Under the pieces are notes generated by a model. It ran no database searches, was not told where the DNA came from, and worked only from the letters and a program-made list of their open reading frames with translations. The translations under genes and the position numbers were made by a program. Positions 4,723 to 16,812 of a stretch of DNA of 64,000 bases are shown here, piece after piece. The first letter of the stretch is position 1; each line of letters begins with the position of its first letter. Origin of the DNA: Promethearchaeota archaeon (GTDB lineage: Archaea; Asgardarchaeota; Lokiarchaeia; Sigyniarchaeales; SOKP01); NCBI GenBank assembly GCA_016840165.1, contig JAEOSU010000009.1, positions 1 through 64,000 of the forward strand, read 5' to 3'.

Positions 4723-6237
4723 ATGTCGGATAGACCGAATATCTTATTTTTATTAAATGATCATCAGACCTATTATGGACATGGAGAGATGTCGGGAGGT
4801 CCAAAAATACAGAGACCTCATTTTAAAAAATTAGCTTCTCAAGGCATCGAATTTTCTCATGCATATACTGCATGTCCTTTATGTGGACCAGCAAGAAGAA
4901 CACTTTTAACTGGATTATATCCTCATAATCACCGAGAATTGAAGAATGAGGTAAATTTTCCTTTCGATAAAGAAACCTATCTGGATATTTTAGGAGATAA
5001 TGGATATGATAACTATTATTATGGTAAATGGCATGCTGGTCCTGGTACTGCCCATGATCATCAATGTGAGGGTTTTAGCTACCCAAATTATAACAACCCC
5101 CTTACTAAACCAGAGTATCGGGCATATTTAAAAAGAAAAGGACTCCCTTTACTAAAAGCTCGAATCGTTCGGAGTTTCTGGGATCTTGAATGGAAAGTTC
5201 CTAAAGAGTATGGGATGCAAATTGGCAAAGAATATACACCATTAAGCCTAAATTATGAAGAAGGTGCATTTGGCATAATGACTACTCCATTAGAAACCCA
5301 CGAATCCTTTTTTCTTGCTAATCTTGCTTGTGAGAAATTAAAAGAAATTTCCCAATTAGATAATCATAAACCATTCAATATGAGGGTTGATTTTTGGGGG
5401 CCACATATGCCATACTTTGTAACTCAAGAACTTTTGGATCTGTATAATCCTGAGGAAATCCCCATACACCCAAATTTTGAATCAGATTTAAGCAATAAAC
5501 CAGAGATATATAAATTCGATTTTTATTATCCTATTAGCAAGAATGGAAGACTTCTTTATCCTAATCCACTTCCGTGGTCAGAATGGCAAAAAGTTCTAGC
5601 GATAAGTTATGCTCATAATACTCTAATAGATCAAGCAGGAGGTTTAATTCTCAATACTTTAGAAAGGTTAGGATTAGATGACAATACTCTTGTAATTTGG
5701 ACAACTGATCATGGAGATGGGTTAGCATGTCATGGAGGTCATTTTGATAAATACTCGTATATGCCAGAAGAAATGCTAAGAATACCCTTAGCTATAAAAT
5801 ATCCAAAAAAAATTCCCTCAGGTCAAGTAAGCGACAATCTTGTGAGTAATATTGATATTGCACCAACCATTCTTGATGCTGCAGGATTAAGCTTCAAAAA
5901 TGAAGTCGATGGTACAAGTTTGTTACCTTTGTGTTCGCGAGAAGATCATGAATGGAGGGAAGATCTCATGTGTGAAACCCATGGACACCATGGTCAAACT
6001 CATATAGGTAGAGCAATTCTAACAAAAAGCTACAAATATATTTTTAATTATAAGGATATGGATGAGTTATATGACTTAAAAATTGATCCCTATGAATTAA
6101 ATAATCTTATCTATGATGATAAGCAAAAAGAATTACTTGAAAATATGAAAAGTAGATTAAACAAATGGCGTTCAATAACAAATGATGAGATGGATAGAGC
6201 AACATTAAGAAAAATTGTGTCAGGAAAGATTCAATAA
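4723..6237 (+). CDS. Cys-type sulfatase-family hydrolase
   Basis: PNILFLLND, signature CGPARRTLLTG (CxPxR), GKWH, TDHG, ELYDL..DP.E. Confidence 0.9.
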   Translation: MSDRPNILFLLNDHQTYYGHGEMSGGPKIQRPHFKKLASQGIEFSHAYTACPLCGPARRTLLTGLYPHNHRELKNEVNFPFDKETYLDILGDNGYDNYYYGKWHAGPGTAHDHQCEGFSYPNYNNPLTKPEYRAYLKRKGLPLLKARIVRSFWDLEWKVPKEYGMQIGKEYTPLSLNYEEGAFGIMTTPLETHESFFLANLACEKLKEISQLDNHKPFNMRVDFWGPHMPYFVTQELLDLYNPEEIPIHPNFESDLSNKPEIYKFDFYYPISKNGRLLYPNPLPWSEWQKVLAISYAHNTLIDQAGGLILNTLERLGLDDNTLVIWTTDHGDGLACHGGHFDKYSYMPEEMLRIPLAIKYPKKIPSGQVSDNLVSNIDIAPTILDAAGLSFKNEVDGTSLLPLCSREDHEWREDLMCETHGHHGQTHIGRAILTKSYKYIFNYKDMDELYDLKIDPYELNNLIYDDKQKELLENMKSRLNKWRSITNDEMDRATLRKIVSGKIQ

Positions 6238-6369
6238 GTTTTAGATTATGTCATACTATACGTAGAATTATTTAGGACCATACTTTATTTTTCTTTACAG
6301 TACAATTATTCAACAGCAAAACCACTTAACTATTAAAGGTAATTAATTAATAAAATCCTAAACAAGTCT

Positions 6370-8496
6370 GTGAAAATTCATAAATCTATAATTTATGCAA
6401 TAGTAAAACAAATTTCATATGAGACTTTATTAGAAGAATTTCTTCAATACAGATCTGATGCGACTAATCGATTAGTTCAGAAATTTAGTAAAAATAGTAA
6501 AAGAATAAAATTAAAACTTCTTTCTAATAAAATATTTAATAGTATTATCTTGATAATTCAACCTATTTTTCTATTATTTACTTATATAAGCTTAGATCAG
6601 ACTATAACTGGAGATAGACACTTCCAAATTATATTATTTGCAAAAGCCATAAATTTGGAATTTTTTTTTGTTTTACAATTCTTTAACTTTCTATTATTAG
6701 GTATTTTTAATTTGAGTAGCATTATGTCCGGCAGAAATTTCGATTGGATTAATACTCTTCCTTTATCTCGTAAAGAATTGAAAAAATTATTTTTCTACTC
6801 TATCTACCACAATCTAAATTTACCAATCATAACAAATATGGTGACTTTTCCGATAATAATGCTTCTAGCTACTCAAAATTTTCTGGTTTTATTAGTTTCT
6901 ATAGGGGTATCAATTCTAAATAGTATCTTTACTCTCTCAATATTAATTATTTTAGGCGAAAAAATTGTTAAATTCATGATAAAGCATAAATCAAAGTCGA
7001 GAAAACCGCTATTCACTCAATTGATTAATTCTTTTAGTTATGTTATAATAATCTTTGGAGGTATTTATATTATTGAAATTGTAATGAATTTAATTGTCTC
7101 TTTCATATTAAATTTACCACAACTTAATTATTCTCCATTCTATAACATGATATTATTCTTGATACCATTTCCTTCTAATGTAAGTTATTTCATATTGATC
7201 TTTACAAATATACCTTCAATGCACATTATTTTTTGGCTTAACTTAATTTATGGTTTAGGATTATACTTAATTACAATATACTTTCTTCTTCGTAGATCAT
7301 TTAAATCGGTCGGTACCGTATTTTCACAAAAATTTAATCTAAGCGGATATGGTTCAGAAGAAAAGGATGAGTTTACAATTAATGTGAAATCCCATTATAA
7401 AGCATTTATTCGAAAAGACTTATTAATTGCTTCAAGAGATATCCAAACATCAATGAGTTTTATAATGCCCCTAATCATGTCTATAACCTTTACCTTTTTC
7501 TTTAATTTTAGTTTAATGAGTGGCAATATACCACTAACAAATATTTTATTTATAGATAACTGGTTGGTAATACTGGGATTTGCTCCCATCATTTCTGCCA
7601 TAATTGTAAATAGTATTTTAACTATTGATGAATTAGGAAGGACGGTTATGGATACACTACCTATTATCCGTCGAGAGCAAGCAAGGTCAAAACTTACCAT
7701 CATACTTTTAATACAAATACTTTCTGTTCTCTCTCCAACAGTTATTTATCTGTTCCATGATAGATTTTTTGATTTCTTCTTAGCTTTTTTGAGTGCTGTC
7801 CCTATTGTTTTGATATATTCGATCGTCACTTACCTATTAAGAATACGTTATTTTGGAAGGAAAAAATATTATTATACACTTAATGAAGTTTGGCCTGAGA
7901 ATAAAGTAGGAAAATGGACTTTAATTTTCACTGTAAATTACCTGTTTTATATAATTATTTTTGAAATCTCCTATTTTTTATTTTTAGTTTTTGGTTTTTT
8001 CATTTTTTTAGTTAGTGAAATAATCCTTTCCATAGTTATTATTCTCTTTTTAAAAAGCAGATTTGATAAATATTTCCCTATGGATTCAAAAAGAAAGTGG
8101 AGTTTAGGAATCGCAATTTTCCTATTATATTGTTACGTATTATTCAATATTTTCTTATTTAGCACAATTATATCATTCCCAATTGGTATTATTTCTTTAT
8201 CAGCATTAATAATTTTATCGGGATGCATTTTAATTGTGAAATTTCTTATAAAACAAAGGAATAAAAATAAAATCATAATGAGAAAACAAAGATCTCCAAA
8301 AATGATGAGAATAAGTGACAAAAAGATAAATAAATCAGTTATTTTTCTGAGTTTGGCAGTCTTATTTTTCATAGGTAGTTTAATTCCACGATTTGGTAAC
8401 TTTTTGCCATTTGCCCATTTGCTTATGGGTGCTTTTTTAATCCAACTTGGAATTTTAATATTCTATATCGCGTTTAAAATAAAAGGACGCAATTGA
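6370..8496 (+). CDS. Polytopic membrane protein, ABC-2-type permease-like
   Basis: More than 12 hydrophobic segments; two internal 'TLP(L/I)' motifs; 'KD..IASR' motif at the start of the second half; GTG start. Confidence 0.65.
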   Translation: MKIHKSIIYAIVKQISYETLLEEFLQYRSDATNRLVQKFSKNSKRIKLKLLSNKIFNSIILIIQPIFLLFTYISLDQTITGDRHFQIILFAKAINLEFFFVLQFFNFLLLGIFNLSSIMSGRNFDWINTLPLSRKELKKLFFYSIYHNLNLPIITNMVTFPIIMLLATQNFLVLLVSIGVSILNSIFTLSILIILGEKIVKFMIKHKSKSRKPLFTQLINSFSYVIIIFGGIYIIEIVMNLIVSFILNLPQLNYSPFYNMILFLIPFPSNVSYFILIFTNIPSMHIIFWLNLIYGLGLYLITIYFLLRRSFKSVGTVFSQKFNLSGYGSEEKDEFTINVKSHYKAFIRKDLLIASRDIQTSMSFIMPLIMSITFTFFFNFSLMSGNIPLTNILFIDNWLVILGFAPIISAIIVNSILTIDELGRTVMDTLPIIRREQARSKLTIILLIQILSVLSPTVIYLFHDRFFDFFLAFLSAVPIVLIYSIVTYLLRIRYFGRKKYYYTLNEVWPENKVGKWTLIFTVNYLFYIIIFEISYFLFLVFGFFIFLVSEIILSIVIILFLKSRFDKYFPMDSKRKWSLGIAIFLLYCYVLFNIFLFSTIISFPIGIISLSALIILSGCILIVKFLIKQRNKNKIIMRKQRSPKMMRISDKKINKSVIFLSLAVLFFIGSLIPRFGNFLPFAHLLMGAFLIQLGILIFYIAFKIKGRN

Positions 8497-13801: not shown

Positions 13802-14503
13802 CTATAATTGTTTGACAACACCAAAGTAGATAAAATATAAGCATATAAGGGAGGGTAATGATAATATTGACCATATAAACCGAAATGTAGGGTCTGCTAA
13901 TGTATTTGAAATAGATGTTCCATAATAAACGAAATAATAAGCAAACATTCCAACAATAAAGTATTTCCATTTCTTTTTAAGCTCTATATGTTCAAACTTC
14001 AGATAAAGCTTGACAGAGAAAAAAATTGTTGGGAGTATTACAGAGTTACAAATCACAAAACTATAGATTAAAAATGGCCAACTCCATTCTGGTTTCCAAT
14101 TAGTTGATTCATTGATGGTAATTCCGCCTGGAATAAATAAAAGACCCAATAAACCTGCACTAAATATGATAAGAAGGAAGGCCTGAACTTTTTTCGTTAT
14201 GATGCTTTCAGATTTCATTAAAACGAGCAAAAATATTAATAAGAACATTAAAGATAAACAGAGAAAAAAGTATGTTAAAAAATGTAAAATAAATACAATG
14301 ATTTCTATAAAAATGAACGCATATATTATATTGATTACAACACCTATCGTTGTTGATAAATAAAAACAACTTATTATCAAATTTAATCCCTTGCTCTCTC
14401 GTCTAAGAATTCGAAATGCGATGAATAAAAAGAAAAACCCAATTAATCCTTGAACAAGAAATATTTGGATAAACCTTGCTAAATCTAAGTGTTGATATAA
14501 CAA
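13802..14503 (-). CDS. Seven-TM membrane protein (paralogue of 12948-13688)
   Basis: Same motif series as its neighbour; TTG start. Confidence 0.8.
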   Translation of the reverse strand: MLYQHLDLARFIQIFLVQGLIGFFFLFIAFRILRRESKGLNLIISCFYLSTTIGVVINIIYAFIFIEIIVFILHFLTYFFLCLSLMFLLIFLLVLMKSESIITKKVQAFLLIIFSAGLLGLLFIPGGITINESTNWKPEWSWPFLIYSFVICNSVILPTIFFSVKLYLKFEHIELKKKWKYFIVGMFAYYFVYYGTSISNTLADPTFRFIWSILSLPSLICLYFIYFGVVKQL

Positions 14504-14613
14504 CTTTTAATCCCTTTATGTTAATGTCCTAAATTAACTTTATAATTATTATGATATATTTTTAATTCTATAAAATAATATACCTAAATAGCTTAAATAA
14601 AATATATTTTTCT

Positions 14614-15872: not shown

Positions 15873-16098
15873 TTATTGTTCTCTCCATTCAATCCCGCAT
15901 TTACCACATTTATACTCTATAGCATCAAATTGCTATAGATCTATATTTTTTGCCATAGACACGCGGGTAATCACTGATAATATGCGATCTGTCGGTAGAT
16001 TCATGAATCATGTGTTTATTCTCTTCACCACAGCTAGGACATTTTCTTCTTCCATCTGATTTCTCAATTGTTAAAATTTTATTCTTTTCTTCTCCCAT
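15873..16098 (-). CDS. Small Zn-ribbon protein interrupted by a 31-nt insertion (exon 1 16098-15941, exon 2 15909-15873; 64 aa if joined)
   Basis: Manual translation gives MGEEKNKILTIEKSDGRRKCPSCGEENKHMIHESTDRSHIISDYPRVYGKKY followed by RSIAI-stop; the +1 frame continues (K)CGKCGIEWREQ-stop. Removing 15910-15940 joins CPSC and CGKC in one frame. Not in the supplied ORF track. Confidence 0.75.
15910..15940 (-). other. Candidate bulge-helix-bulge (tRNA-type) intron in a protein-coding gene
   Basis: mRNA reads AUAU-AG^A-UCUAUAGCA-AUUUGA-UGCUAUAGA-GUAU-AA^A: 9-bp perfect stem, 4-bp central helix AUAU/GUAU, two 3-nt bulges. Cutting after the second base of each bulge removes 31 nt and restores the frame. 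Confidence 0.6.
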
Positions 16099-16191: not shown

Positions 16192-16812
16192 TTAAGAATT
16201 TTGATTATATTTTCCTTTCAATAATTCTTGTCCATAGCTCTTAGCGCGAACAAGTGATTCAGGACTTGATGTTTGAAATCTTAGTAGGATATCGTAGAGA
16301 ATTTGCTCCAAAATAGCGTCTATATCTTCACTTTTGTTTTGAATTTCAAAACAGTAAATAAAATTTAATTCATTAGTTTTCTTTATTAAATTCAATCGGC
16401 TGATTCTAAAATATTCAGATGGAACTCCTTTCTCAATGTAATAAGAATCTACACCAACAAATACAGTCAATACTTGGAAGTTATATTGTTGTGTGAATTG
16501 GTTTAATGAGTGAGGTGTATATTGATTAATAGATTGGGTATTATAGATGTTAATACAGATTATCAGGGCATCCAAATTTTTCAGCTTAGAAGTTTCTTTA
16601 ATCAACTGATCGAGGCTTTCTACTACAATTAACCTAATTTTGAACGGGATTTCTTGATGAATCACCAAGTACTCATGAATATCATTGTTTTGACAATAAT
16701 CAAGAGCAATTTGATAAAAATGTTGTTGAAAAAGCTCTTTACAAGAATCTTCCATTCCCATAATCGCTAAATTGACGCTAAATCTAACTTTTTTCAAGCC
16801 CAATCTTTCCAA
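16192..16812 (-). CDS. Degenerate small-GTPase-fold-like protein
   Basis: Ras-like order of elements (NLAIMG.., LDALIICINIYNTQS, VFVGVD, CFEI) but no GxxxxGK[ST], DxxG or NKxD; TTG start. Confidence 0.5.
   Translation of the reverse strand: MERLGLKKVRFSVNLAIMGMEDSCKELFQQHFYQIALDYCQNNDIHEYLVIHQEIPFKIRLIVVESLDQLIKETSKLKNLDALIICINIYNTQSINQYTPHSLNQFTQQYNFQVLTVFVGVDSYYIEKGVPSEYFRISRLNLIKKTNELNFIYCFEIQNKSEDIDAILEQILYDILLRFQTSSPESLVRAKSYGQELLKGKYNQNS

What the first reader, a model, noticed from the sequence alone, without database searches (positions are those of the whole stretch)
15873..16098. Candidate bulge-helix-bulge (tRNA-type) intron inside a protein-coding Zn-ribbon gene
Seen in sequence: this gap in the ORF track holds a minus-strand gene, MGEEKNK...RRKCPSCGEE...DYPRVYGKKY, that stops after RSIAI (57 aa). 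Its natural second zinc knuckle, CGKCGIEWREQ*, sits in the +1 frame. Between the two halves the mRNA reads AUAU|AGA|UCUAUAGCA|AUUUGA|UGCUAUAGA|GUAU|AAA. This forms a perfect 9-bp stem with a 6-nt loop, a 4-bp helix (A-U, U-A, A-U, U-G) and two 3-nt bulges on opposite strands. The exons can also pair further out (CCCGCGU with AUGCGGG). Established: archaeal splicing endonuclease EndA cuts BHB motifs after the second nucleotide of each bulge, and mRNA introns of this type are known from very few archaeal genes (crenarchaeal cbf5 is the classic case). Applying that rule excises 15910-15940 (31 nt) and gives ...KKY-R-CGKCGIEWREQ*, a 64-aa protein with both CxxC pairs. The insert has stops in all three frames. 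Inference: an EndA/RtcB-spliced mRNA intron in an Asgard archaeon, possibly an on/off switch analogous to HAC1/XBP1 splicing. Caveats: the exon-side helix next to the second bulge is weak (relaxed HBh'/BHL type); a TATA direct repeat flanks the insert, so it could be an inactivating hairpin insertion; a +1 slip at AUU-UGA would also reach exon 2.
Basis: partly seen in the sequence, partly recalled or inferred. Interest (0 to 1): 0.92.

Follow-up and report, generated by a model that had tools for sequence, protein, structure and literature searches.

The report
tRNA-type mini-intron splits zinc-ribbon gene
A 31-base hairpin that breaks a small, conserved zinc-ribbon gene of an Asgard (Promethearchaeota/Lokiarchaeia) archaeon has the shape and cut sites of an archaeal tRNA intron. 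It is kept with compensating base changes at the same spot in related genes, so the mRNA is very probably cut and re-joined by the tRNA-splicing enzymes, which published work has confirmed for only one archaeal protein gene (cbf5).

Summary
The minus-strand ORF 16098-15925 stops after RSIAI, and the second CxxC knuckle lies in the +1 frame down to 15873. All 19 same-genus orthologues are uninterrupted and read YGKKY[RKL]CGxCG. The window therefore carries exactly 31 extra bases (15910-15940).

Cutting by the bulge-helix-bulge (BHB) rule restores the orthologue sequence. The motif is class HBh': a 4/4 central helix, a 9-bp intron helix and a weak exon helix.

The insert is not an assembly artefact and not a repeat. 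It is present in independent assemblies and in a lineage about 8% diverged. There, exon 1 shows pN/pS 0.09 and exon 2 is intact.

A paralogous gelsolin + zinc-ribbon gene carries 30-31-nt introns at the homologous site in three metagenomic lineages. Across five variants 98% of the pair cells stay paired, and 8 of 13 pairs changed on both sides.

The same genome has HBh' mini-introns in EF-2, RNase HII, mevalonate kinase and DnaG. It also encodes two EndA paralogues and RtcB.

A HAC1-like switch role is untested. This scan has reported similar Asgard mRNA introns before on other DNA. I found no paper describing them.

The parts
15941..16098 (-). Exon 1 of the 64-aa zinc-ribbon micro-protein gene: M1 to Y52 plus the first two bases (AG) of codon 53. 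It contains the first CxxC knuckle.
   Evidence: It aligns to residues 1-53 of 19 orthologues. Against the L024 lineage pN/pS is 0.09.
15910..15940 (-). 31-nt BHB (class HBh') mini-intron. It has stops in all three frames, and its length is not a multiple of 3.
   Evidence: It is absent from 19 orthologues. It is present in independent assemblies L021-L025. BHB scoring is and covariation.
15873..15909 (-). Exon 2: the last base of codon 53 (R), then CGKCGIEWREQ and the TAA stop. This is the second CxxC knuckle.
   Evidence: There is no in-frame start codon of its own (read from the sequence). Only 1 synonymous change against L024. The second knuckle is kept in all 30 intact homologues.
15943..15946 (-). 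Central helix H, 5' (exon) strand AUAU.
   Evidence: 4/4 pairs. It covaries with the 3' strand across variants.
15940..15942 (-). 5' bulge AGA. The predicted cut is after AG, between 15941 and 15940.
   Evidence: The same A-rich bulges are seen in the EF-2, RNase HII, MVK and DnaG introns.
15931..15939 (-). Intron helix h', 5' arm UCUAUAGCA.
   Evidence: Seven of its 9 pairs show changes on both sides across five variants.
15925..15930 (-). Hairpin loop AUUUGA. It contains the in-frame TGA that ends the unspliced ORF.
15916..15924 (-). Intron helix h', 3' arm UGCUAUAGA.
15912..15915 (-). Central helix H, 3' (intron) strand GUAU.
15909..15911 (-). 3' bulge AAA. The predicted cut is after AA, between 15910 and 15909. 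Because the exon helix is weak, this bulge lies in a 4x3 internal loop.
15961..15967 (-). Distal exon-exon clamp, 5' strand CCCGCGU. It pairs with 15894-15900.
   Evidence: MFE fold. Five of 7 pairs are kept in L091, with no covariation. Its significance is uncertain.
15894..15900 (-). Distal exon-exon clamp, 3' strand AUGCGGG.
16192..16812 (-). Upstream 206-aa gene of unknown family. It is the conserved neighbour (same strand, about 100 nt upstream) of the zinc-ribbon gene.
   Evidence: A homologue lies next to the zinc-ribbon gene in 17 of 17 orthologous loci examined. No Pfam family passes its cut-off.

Best explanation
The 31 nt at 15910-15940 are a bulge-helix-bulge (class HBh') mini-intron in the pre-mRNA of a conserved 64-aa four-cysteine zinc-ribbon protein. 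Shown: the insert exists, and its boundaries equal the BHB cut sites. The structure is conserved with compensatory changes, and the interrupted gene remains under purifying selection. The genome encodes the splicing enzymes and carries the same kind of intron in essential genes. Inferred: the transcript folds so that exon AUAU pairs with intron GUAU, next to a 9-bp intron hairpin. The splicing endonuclease, which has two paralogues and so probably a crenarchaeal-type (alpha-beta)2 enzyme of broad specificity, cuts after the second base of each 3-nt bulge. RtcB then joins the exons to give ...KKY-R-CGKCGIEWREQ, and probably circularises the 31-nt intron. Unspliced mRNA would yield only a 57-aa product without the second zinc knuckle. 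The intron is young in this gene: only this species and a sister lineage have it. It belongs to a family of same-site introns that also occurs in a paralogous gelsolin + zinc-ribbon gene.
For: (1) All 19 same-genus orthologues, which are syntenic, are uninterrupted. They read YGKKY[RKL]CGxCG, so the window has exactly 31 extra bases.
(2) The BHB rule applied at register 0 gives H 4/4, h' 9 bp and 3-nt bulges AGA and AAA, and restores the orthologue reading. The BHB conformer lies 0.3 kcal/mol from the MFE.
(3) The insert is real DNA. It is identical in an independent Logan assembly that is 97.9% identical over the locus. It is also present in a lineage about 91.5% identical, represented by an NCBI MAG and another Logan run.
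(4) Between the two intron-bearing lineages exon 1 has pS 0.43 and pN 0.039 (pN/pS 0.09). Exon 2 has one synonymous change and no other change. The BHB core is unchanged.
(5) Exon 2 has no start codon of its own, and all 30 intact homologues keep the second CxxC.
(6) Introns of 30-31 nt at the same site in the gelsolin + zinc-ribbon paralogue (L091, L189-191, L192-193) all have H 4/4, h' 9 bp and a 5-6 nt loop. In the five-variant alignment 98.4% of cells are paired and 8 of 13 pairs changed on both sides. No shuffle out of 500 reached this, and slid controls gave 29-62% paired.
(7) The same genome has HBh' mini-introns at homology-defined boundaries in EF-2 (absent from 11 of 11 orthologues), RNase HII (same site in 5 species), MVK (4 species, covarying h') and DnaG (4 genomes, with a compensatory change in H).
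(8) There are two EndA paralogues. One is closest to the catalytic alpha subunit of the A. pernix heterotetramer (E 3e-38). RtcB is also present. Asgard EndA is reported as (alpha-beta)2 with the L1 loop that confers broad specificity (PMC5829648).
Against: There is no RNA evidence. The exon-side helix h has only 1 bp next to the 3' bulge, so the 3' site sits in a 4x3 internal loop, which is a relaxed motif. The two substitutions in the L024 intron are not compensatory: they give one G.U pair and one U.C mismatch in the distal stem. Conservation of exon 2 and of the intron between the two lineages is significant only against the synonymous rate, not against the 8-12% intergenic divergence. BHB-like motifs alone are common in this AT-rich genome and have no genome-wide discriminating power.
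Confidence: 0.85

Rival explanations
1. Translational recoding rescues the gene without splicing. One route is a ribosome hop from the codon before the insert to a matching codon after it (TAT...TAT here), as in phage T4 gene 60. The other is a +1 slip at AUU-UGA that would give a 74-aa protein with RSIAI-DAIEY between the knuckles.
For: Matching take-off and landing codons exist: TAT 31 nt apart in the window and in L091, and AAA...AAA in the 30-nt variants. A hairpin lies in the gap. The +1 frame is open from the loop into exon 2.
Against: The AUU-UGA site is not conserved in L091, L189 or L192. The 30-nt variants are in frame and carry TAA, so a frameshift cannot rescue them. Bypassing does not predict pairing between exon bases upstream of the take-off site and the 3' end of the gap, yet that helix covaries (G-C against A-U). 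Neither mechanism predicts exact 3-nt bulges and a 4-bp helix, which recur in five unrelated genes of this genome. After a slip to UUU, tRNA-Ile would pair poorly (my inference).
Confidence: 0.06
2. The insert is an inactivating hairpin insertion. On this view the gene is a young pseudogene, or it now makes only a truncated 57-aa protein.
For: The unspliced ORF ends in the hairpin loop. The insert is lineage-specific. The exon-side helix is weak. BHB-like flanks occur at 2.3% of hairpins by chance.
Against: Exon 1 shows pN/pS 0.09 over pS 0.43 accumulated after the insertion. Exon 2 is intact in both lineages, with only a synonymous change. Every intact homologue needs the second CxxC. Same-site inserts in a paralogue keep the structure through 8 compensatory pair changes and keep intact second exons. 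Essential genes such as EF-2 and DnaG carry the same kind of insert in this 99.7%-complete genome.
Confidence: 0.06
3. The insert is an assembly or sequencing artefact, or a footprint of a repeated mobile hairpin element (MITE).
For: The genome is a MAG in 105 contigs. The insert is palindromic.
Against: The identical insert occurs in Logan assemblies of separate runs, and a 2-substitution variant occurs in an NCBI MAG and another run. There is a single copy in the genome at up to 5 mismatches and by blastn-short. None was found in 41 other genus genomes. There is no true target-site duplication: other introns of the genome have complementary flanks, not repeated ones.
Confidence: 0.01

Closest known systems
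BHB intron in the cbf5 pre-mRNA of Crenarchaeota (Aeropyrum, Sulfolobus; Watanabe 2002, Yoshinari 2006, Yokobori 2009 = PMC2738675)
   Same: [quoted passage not shown] It is attributed to a hetero-oligomeric splicing endonuclease of broad specificity, and it shows lineage-specific presence and absence.
   Different: The phylum (Asgard/Promethearchaeota) and the gene (a 64-aa zinc-ribbon micro-protein) differ. Here the intron is one of several in the same genome, including EF-2, DnaG, RNase HII and MVK. It recurs at the homologous site of a paralogue. Splicing of cbf5 was shown experimentally, whereas here it is inferred.
[quoted passage not shown]
   Same: The same motif class, with 4 central pairs plus an intron helix and a weak or absent exon helix. 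The size range is similar, the enzymes are inferred to be the same, and gains are repeated and recent with an unknown route of arrival.
   Different: The host RNA is an mRNA, so the exon half of the motif is constrained by codons. In addition, failure to splice truncates a protein.
HAC1/XBP1 unconventional mRNA splicing (IRE1 + tRNA ligase/RtcB)
   Same: Non-spliceosomal removal of a short stem-loop-flanked intron. It changes the reading frame of the C-terminus and ends with RtcB-type ligation (in metazoa).
   Different: The nuclease differs (IRE1, not EndA/Sen). That system is a regulated stress switch. No regulation is evident here, and housekeeping genes carry the same introns, which points to constitutive splicing.
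Translational bypassing of phage T4 gene 60
   Same: A coding gap containing a hairpin and flanked by matching codons.
   Different: Bypassing needs no 4-bp helix between upstream exon bases and the end of the gap, and no paired 3-nt bulges. Here those features are conserved and covary.

Membership tests
Archaeal BHB (EndA-type) intron | A central 4-bp helix flanked by two 3-nt bulges on opposite strands | tested here: met
   AUAU/GUAU forms 4/4 pairs (3 Watson-Crick + 1 G.U). The bulges are AGA and AAA. The 5' bulge is clean. The 3' bulge lies in a 4x3 internal loop because the exon helix is weak.
Archaeal BHB (EndA-type) intron | At least one flanking helix (h or h') of 2 bp or more; the strict form hBHBh' needs both | tested here: met
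   h' is a perfect 9 bp. h is only 1 bp, so the class is HBh' and not strict hBHBh'. The other verified mRNA introns of this genome fall in the same class.
Archaeal BHB (EndA-type) intron | Cuts after the second base of each bulge remove exactly the intervening sequence and restore the functional molecule | tested here: met
   Excising 15910-15940 gives the KKYRCGKCG reading of 19 orthologues. That the cut position falls after the second bulge base rests on established knowledge (Marck & Grosjean 2003), recalled from memory rather than tested.
Archaeal BHB (EndA-type) intron | Structure conserved in relatives through compensatory changes | tested here: met
   Across five same-site variants 98.4% of cells are paired and 8 of 13 pairs changed on both sides. 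No shuffle out of 500 reached this.
Archaeal BHB (EndA-type) intron | The host encodes the splicing endonuclease and an RtcB ligase | tested here: met
   PF01974 is found twice (201 and 205 aa, each with N- and C-terminal domains). One copy is closest to the A. pernix alpha subunit. RtcB matches at E 5e-167. The heterotetramer architecture is inferred, not shown.
Archaeal BHB (EndA-type) intron | Excision and exon ligation observed in RNA (spliced junction, circular intron) or in vitro | not testable with these tools
MITE or other repeated hairpin element | Multiple copies in the genome with target-site duplications | tested here: not met
   There is a single copy in the genome and none in 41 genus genomes. 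The flanking 'repeat' is the self-complementary helix H.
Programmed +1 ribosomal frameshift | A conserved slippery site and stop context in relatives | tested here: not met
   AUU-UGA is kept only in the near-identical L024 lineage. L091 has a different sequence there, and L189 and L192 have in-frame 30-nt inserts carrying TAA.

The most novel reading that the evidence does not exclude
BHB mini-introns are currently mobile in the protein-coding genes of this Promethearchaeia genus. On this reading, related 30-31-nt introns occupy the homologous KKY|[RK]CG site of two paralogous genes in different lineages, and most relatives lack them, because the intron spreads to sites whose exon half can complete a BHB. 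The route could be ectopic gene conversion between paralogues, or reverse splicing followed by reverse transcription. If so, this would be an ongoing, site-selective intron-gain process in mRNAs of the closest prokaryotic relatives of eukaryotes.
Probability: 0.3. Interest if true: 0.9.

Novelty: new member of a known kind. Interest (0 to 1): 0.72.

Why it matters
Published work has confirmed tRNA-type splicing of an archaeal mRNA only for cbf5 in Crenarchaeota (PMC2738675). Here an Asgard archaeon carries such introns in several protein genes, including EF-2 and DnaG. The zinc-ribbon case is unusually informative for three reasons. It is young, so the empty site is known from 19 orthologues. 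It is retained under purifying selection. It also has structurally covarying counterparts at the same site of a paralogue.

This has practical and conceptual consequences. Gene callers will mis-annotate such genes as truncated or as pseudogenes. The exon half of the BHB shows what makes a coding site permissive for an intron. The system also offers a testable model of how introns are gained and lost in protein genes in the lineage closest to eukaryotes.

Tried and rejected
Neither splicing nor DNA read support could therefore be examined directly.

(2) Genome-wide scan for BHB motifs that repair ORFs. Counts were the same for bulge sizes 1 to 5 at every threshold, so the scan has no power in this AT-rich genome. 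The hairpin-conditioned test also showed no enrichment at 3-nt spacing. It served only to give the 2.3% chance rate.

(3) Search for a donor or repeated copy of the intron. None was found in the own genome or in 41 genus genomes.

(4) First metagenome pattern, fixing the BHB core and freeing the distal stem: 0 hits. The second, looser pattern found L091.

(5) Short homologues P0050 (YGKRSIIP tail, near a contig end) and P0034 (in-frame TAG in place of the Tyr codon). Neither is intron-like.

(6) Members of the 90% cluster of P0001 were uninformative.

(7) Rfam: no family; best E 0.46. Pfam: the protein fits no family above its cut-off and gives only generic zinc-ribbon hints.

(8) The target-site-duplication idea. 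It was rejected because the 'repeat' ATAT/GTAT is the self-complementary helix H, and other introns of the genome have complementary flanks, not repeated ones.

(9) The status of the genome's own gelsolin + zinc-ribbon paralogue could not be settled. Contig C61 ends 46 nt before the homologous site, and no database protein more than 91% identical to it was among those retrieved.

Full report
OBSERVATION. On the minus strand an ATG at 16098 opens a frame that reads MGEEKNK...CPSCGEE...DYPRVYGKKYRSIAI. It stops at a TGA inside a hairpin loop, giving 57 aa. The second zinc knuckle, CGKCGIEWREQ*, lies in the +1 frame and ends at 15873. Between the two lies a perfect 9-bp stem with a 6-nt loop, preceded by AUAU-AGA and followed by GUAU-AAA. 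The 96-nt region folds to -27.1 kcal/mol (z = -3.4). The exact BHB register is essentially isoenergetic at -26.8.

IS IT AN INSERT? A six-frame search of 41 related genomes found the gene in 38. I read the junction in 19 same-genus loci. Every one is uninterrupted, 61-64 aa long, and reads YGKKY[RKL]CG[KRQ]CGxEWxE*. In 17 of 17 stand-alone loci the gene lies just downstream of a homologue of the window's 206-aa gene, so these are orthologues. The window therefore has exactly 31 extra bases at 15910-15940. An AT repeat allows three equivalent registers. All 30 intact database homologues that I aligned keep the second CxxC. Exon 2 has no start codon of its own, so the gene cannot work in two pieces.

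NOT AN ARTEFACT, NOT A REPEAT. The truncated 57-aa product is encoded on Logan contigs from other runs. One locus (L022) is 97.9% identical over 4.6 kb and has the identical insert. The only two differences in the gene are synonymous. A more distant lineage, about 91.5% identical, is represented by NCBI MAG GCA_975965205.1 (L024) and another Logan run (L025). It also has the insert, with two substitutions in the distal stem that give one G.U pair and one U.C mismatch. The central helix, both bulges and the four stem pairs next to them are unchanged. The hairpin is unique in the 3.6-Mb genome. It is absent from 41 other genomes of the genus, both with its exon flanks and alone. It is therefore not a MITE.

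SELECTION AFTER INSERTION. Both lineages carry the insert, so I take their differences to post-date it. Exon 1 has 12 synonymous and 5 non-synonymous differences (pS 0.43, pN 0.039, pN/pS 0.09). This is at least as constrained as the neighbouring genes, which show 0.14-0.22. Exon 2 has one synonymous change (CAA to CAG) and nothing else. The 33 nt after the stop have 5 changes. The gene is thus still in use, including very probably its second exon. A caveat applies: the low divergence of exon 2 and of the intron is significant against the synonymous rate but not against the 8-12% seen in the intergenic spacers.

BHB GEOMETRY. I scored each homology-equivalent register. Only register 0 gives 4/4 central pairs (AUAU/GUAU), a 9-bp intron helix directly abutting them, and 3-nt bulges AGA and AAA. 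The exon helix h has just one pair. The class is therefore HBh', and the 3' site lies in a 4x3 internal loop. Cutting after the second base of each bulge removes 15910-15940. That cut position is established knowledge recalled from memory, not tested here. For the chance level, among 32,000 to 1.2 million genomic hairpins, 2.3% have such a 4-bp helix at 3-nt spacing, and the rate is the same for other spacings. With the added requirement that the cut sites match the insert boundaries, I estimate a chance of about 1%.

THE SAME SITE IN A PARALOGUE. A metagenome scan looked for the end of exon 1, a gap of 25-55 nt, and then CGxxCG. It found L091. L091 is a 2x gelsolin + C-terminal zinc-ribbon gene (Pfam PF00626). 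It is syntenic with contig C61 of this genome at 80% nucleotide identity. It carries a 31-nt insert at the homologous KKY|RCG site with the same core (ATAT AG|A ... GTAT AA|A) but a different 9-bp stem. A protein search for that paralogue then gave two more truncated forms, P0103 and P0163. Their loci, L189-191 and L192-193, come from several JGI and Logan samples. They carry 30-nt, in-frame, TAA-containing inserts at the same site, again with H 4/4, h' 9 bp and AAA bulges.

In an alignment of the five variants, 98.4% of pair cells form standard pairs, and 8 of 13 pairs have changes on both sides. One of those 8 is in the central helix, where the exon codon changes (G-C against A-U). No shuffle out of 500 reached these values, and slid controls gave 29-62% pairing. 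The intron is missing from 20 genus copies of that paralogue, from 76 GTDB species loci and from about 116 database proteins. It is therefore a minority, lineage-specific feature in both gene families.

THE GENOME CONTEXT. Notes from this scan pointed to other candidates in the same genome, and I tested four of them myself.
- EF-2 has a 30-nt insert with an in-frame TAA in switch I. All 11 orthologues lack it.
- RNase HII has a 30-nt stop-containing insert between GIDEAGR and GPV at the same site in five species, with diverged sequence.
- Mevalonate kinase has a 30-31-nt insert at LFGE|HFVVYG in four species, with a covarying intron helix.
- DnaG has a 29-43-nt insert at GAIFGQ|TEGLL in four genomes. 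One of them is in another family and has a compensatory change in H.

In EF-2, MVK and DnaG, and in four of the five RNase HII variants, one homology-consistent register gives H 3-4/4, an intron helix of 1-9 bp and an exon helix of 0-1 bp. This is the same HBh' class as the zinc-ribbon intron. For the G007 RNase HII variant, neither scored register fits (H 0 and 2 of 4); a register one base upstream that keeps the protein but not the nucleotides looks BHB-like by eye and was not scored. An organism cannot do without EF-2, so it must remove such inserts.

The genome encodes two full-length EndA paralogues. One is closest to the catalytic alpha subunit of the Aeropyrum pernix heterotetramer (E 3e-38). 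It also encodes RtcB. Asgard EndA has been described as (alpha-beta)2 with the L1 loop that confers broad specificity (PMC5829648). A 2026 preprint reports heavy, repeated gain of tRNA introns in Asgard archaea, with canonical BHB classes occurring at 4-8% by chance (10.64898/2026.10.13.758758). ARAGORN finds only 24 tRNA genes here, several of them with oddly placed introns. That fits a genome rich in non-canonical introns.

MECHANISM AND RIVALS. The best-supported reading (about 0.85) is constitutive EndA cleavage and RtcB ligation of the pre-mRNA. A +1 slip at AUU-UGA is rejected as a general rescue. The site is not conserved in L091, and the 30-nt variants are in frame with a stop. Ribosomal bypassing between matching codons cannot be excluded from sequence alone. 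However, it predicts neither the covarying helix between upstream exon bases and the end of the gap nor the fixed 3-nt bulges. A pseudogene or a truncated protein is contradicted by the selection data and by the conserved structure. The suggested HAC1-like switch has no support or contradiction. The presence of the same introns in housekeeping genes argues for routine splicing.

COMPARISON AND NOVELTY. The closest known case is the cbf5 pre-mRNA intron of Crenarchaeota. As of 2009 that paper states that no other archaeal gene had confirmed mRNA splicing (PMC2738675). Five full-text searches found no report of BHB introns in Asgard protein genes. Earlier agents of this scan have reported the same phenomenon on other Asgard genomes, so within the scan this is a further member. 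It is distinguished by its youth and by the same-site intron family in a paralogue. I class it as a new member of a known kind.

LIMITS. There are no RNA data. The heterotetrameric architecture of EndA is inferred. The direction and route of intron spread between the paralogues is unknown. The genome's own gelsolin + zinc-ribbon copy ends at a contig edge 46 nt before the site.

Noticed in passing
G000 contig C1, + strand, about 7920-7949 (L032/L036): EF-2 carries a 30-nt insert with an in-frame TAA between ...MTDSD and DEEQERGITI. It has an HBh' BHB (UCAG/CUGA, bulges AUU and AAG, 5-bp intron helix). All 11 orthologues examined lack it.
   Followed up: yes
G000 contig C100, + strand, 6689-6718 (L033/L050); also L052, L056, L057, L058: RNase HII has a 30-nt stop-containing insert between GIDEAGR and GPV at the same site in five species of the genus, with diverged sequence. 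It is absent from four other genus genomes and from two outgroup genomes examined.
   Followed up: yes
G000 contig C87, + strand, about 6225-6255 (L035/L078); also L079, L080, L084: Mevalonate kinase has a 30-31-nt insert at LFGE|HFVVYG in four species. The intron helix covaries (UUUAU/AUAAA, UUUACU/AGUAGA, UCUACU/AGUAGA, 9 bp in G007).
   Followed up: yes
G000 contig C58, - strand, about 14482-14524 (L064/L065); also L070, L072, L075: DnaG has a 43-nt insert at GAIFGQ|TEGLL (38, 39 and 29 nt in three other genomes). One of those genomes is in another family, where helix H changed from GGCC/GGCU to GGGC/GCCU, a compensatory change.
   Followed up: yes
L091:9030-10075; L189, L192; G000 contig C61:1-936 (-): A protein of about 337 aa with two gelsolin repeats and a C-terminal copy of this zinc ribbon is widespread in Promethearchaeota MAGs. 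The window's 64-aa protein is a free-standing version of that C-terminal domain.
   Followed up: partly
G000 contig C61, position 1: The genome's own gelsolin + zinc-ribbon gene runs off the contig end 46 nt before the homologous intron site, and the rest is not assembled. A repeat shared with the window's gene might have broken the assembly.
   Followed up: partly
L027:91-300 (JGI 3300041080): An orthologue has an in-frame TAG in place of the conserved Tyr codon (YGRK*RCGRCG), and the frame stays otherwise open. In the window's own lineage (loci L021, L023, L024) an MttB-family gene lies about 2 kb from the zinc-ribbon gene. Pyrrolysine read-through, a polymorphism or a pseudogene are all possible.
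   Followed up: no
window 16192-16812 (-): A 206-aa protein of no Pfam family is the conserved upstream neighbour of the zinc-ribbon gene in all 17 orthologous loci. The two may form a functional pair or an operon.
   Followed up: partly
whole genome G000: ARAGORN finds only 24 tRNA genes in a 99.7%-complete genome. Several have inserts in the D-arm or elsewhere that it mis-assigns. This suggests many tRNA genes with non-canonical introns that the tool misses.
   Followed up: no
L026:2001-2193 (ENA ERZ23499022): A 55-aa homologue ends ...YGKRSIIP* about 25 nt from its contig end, with no recognisable second knuckle downstream. It may be a chimeric contig end or a different disruption.
   Followed up: partly
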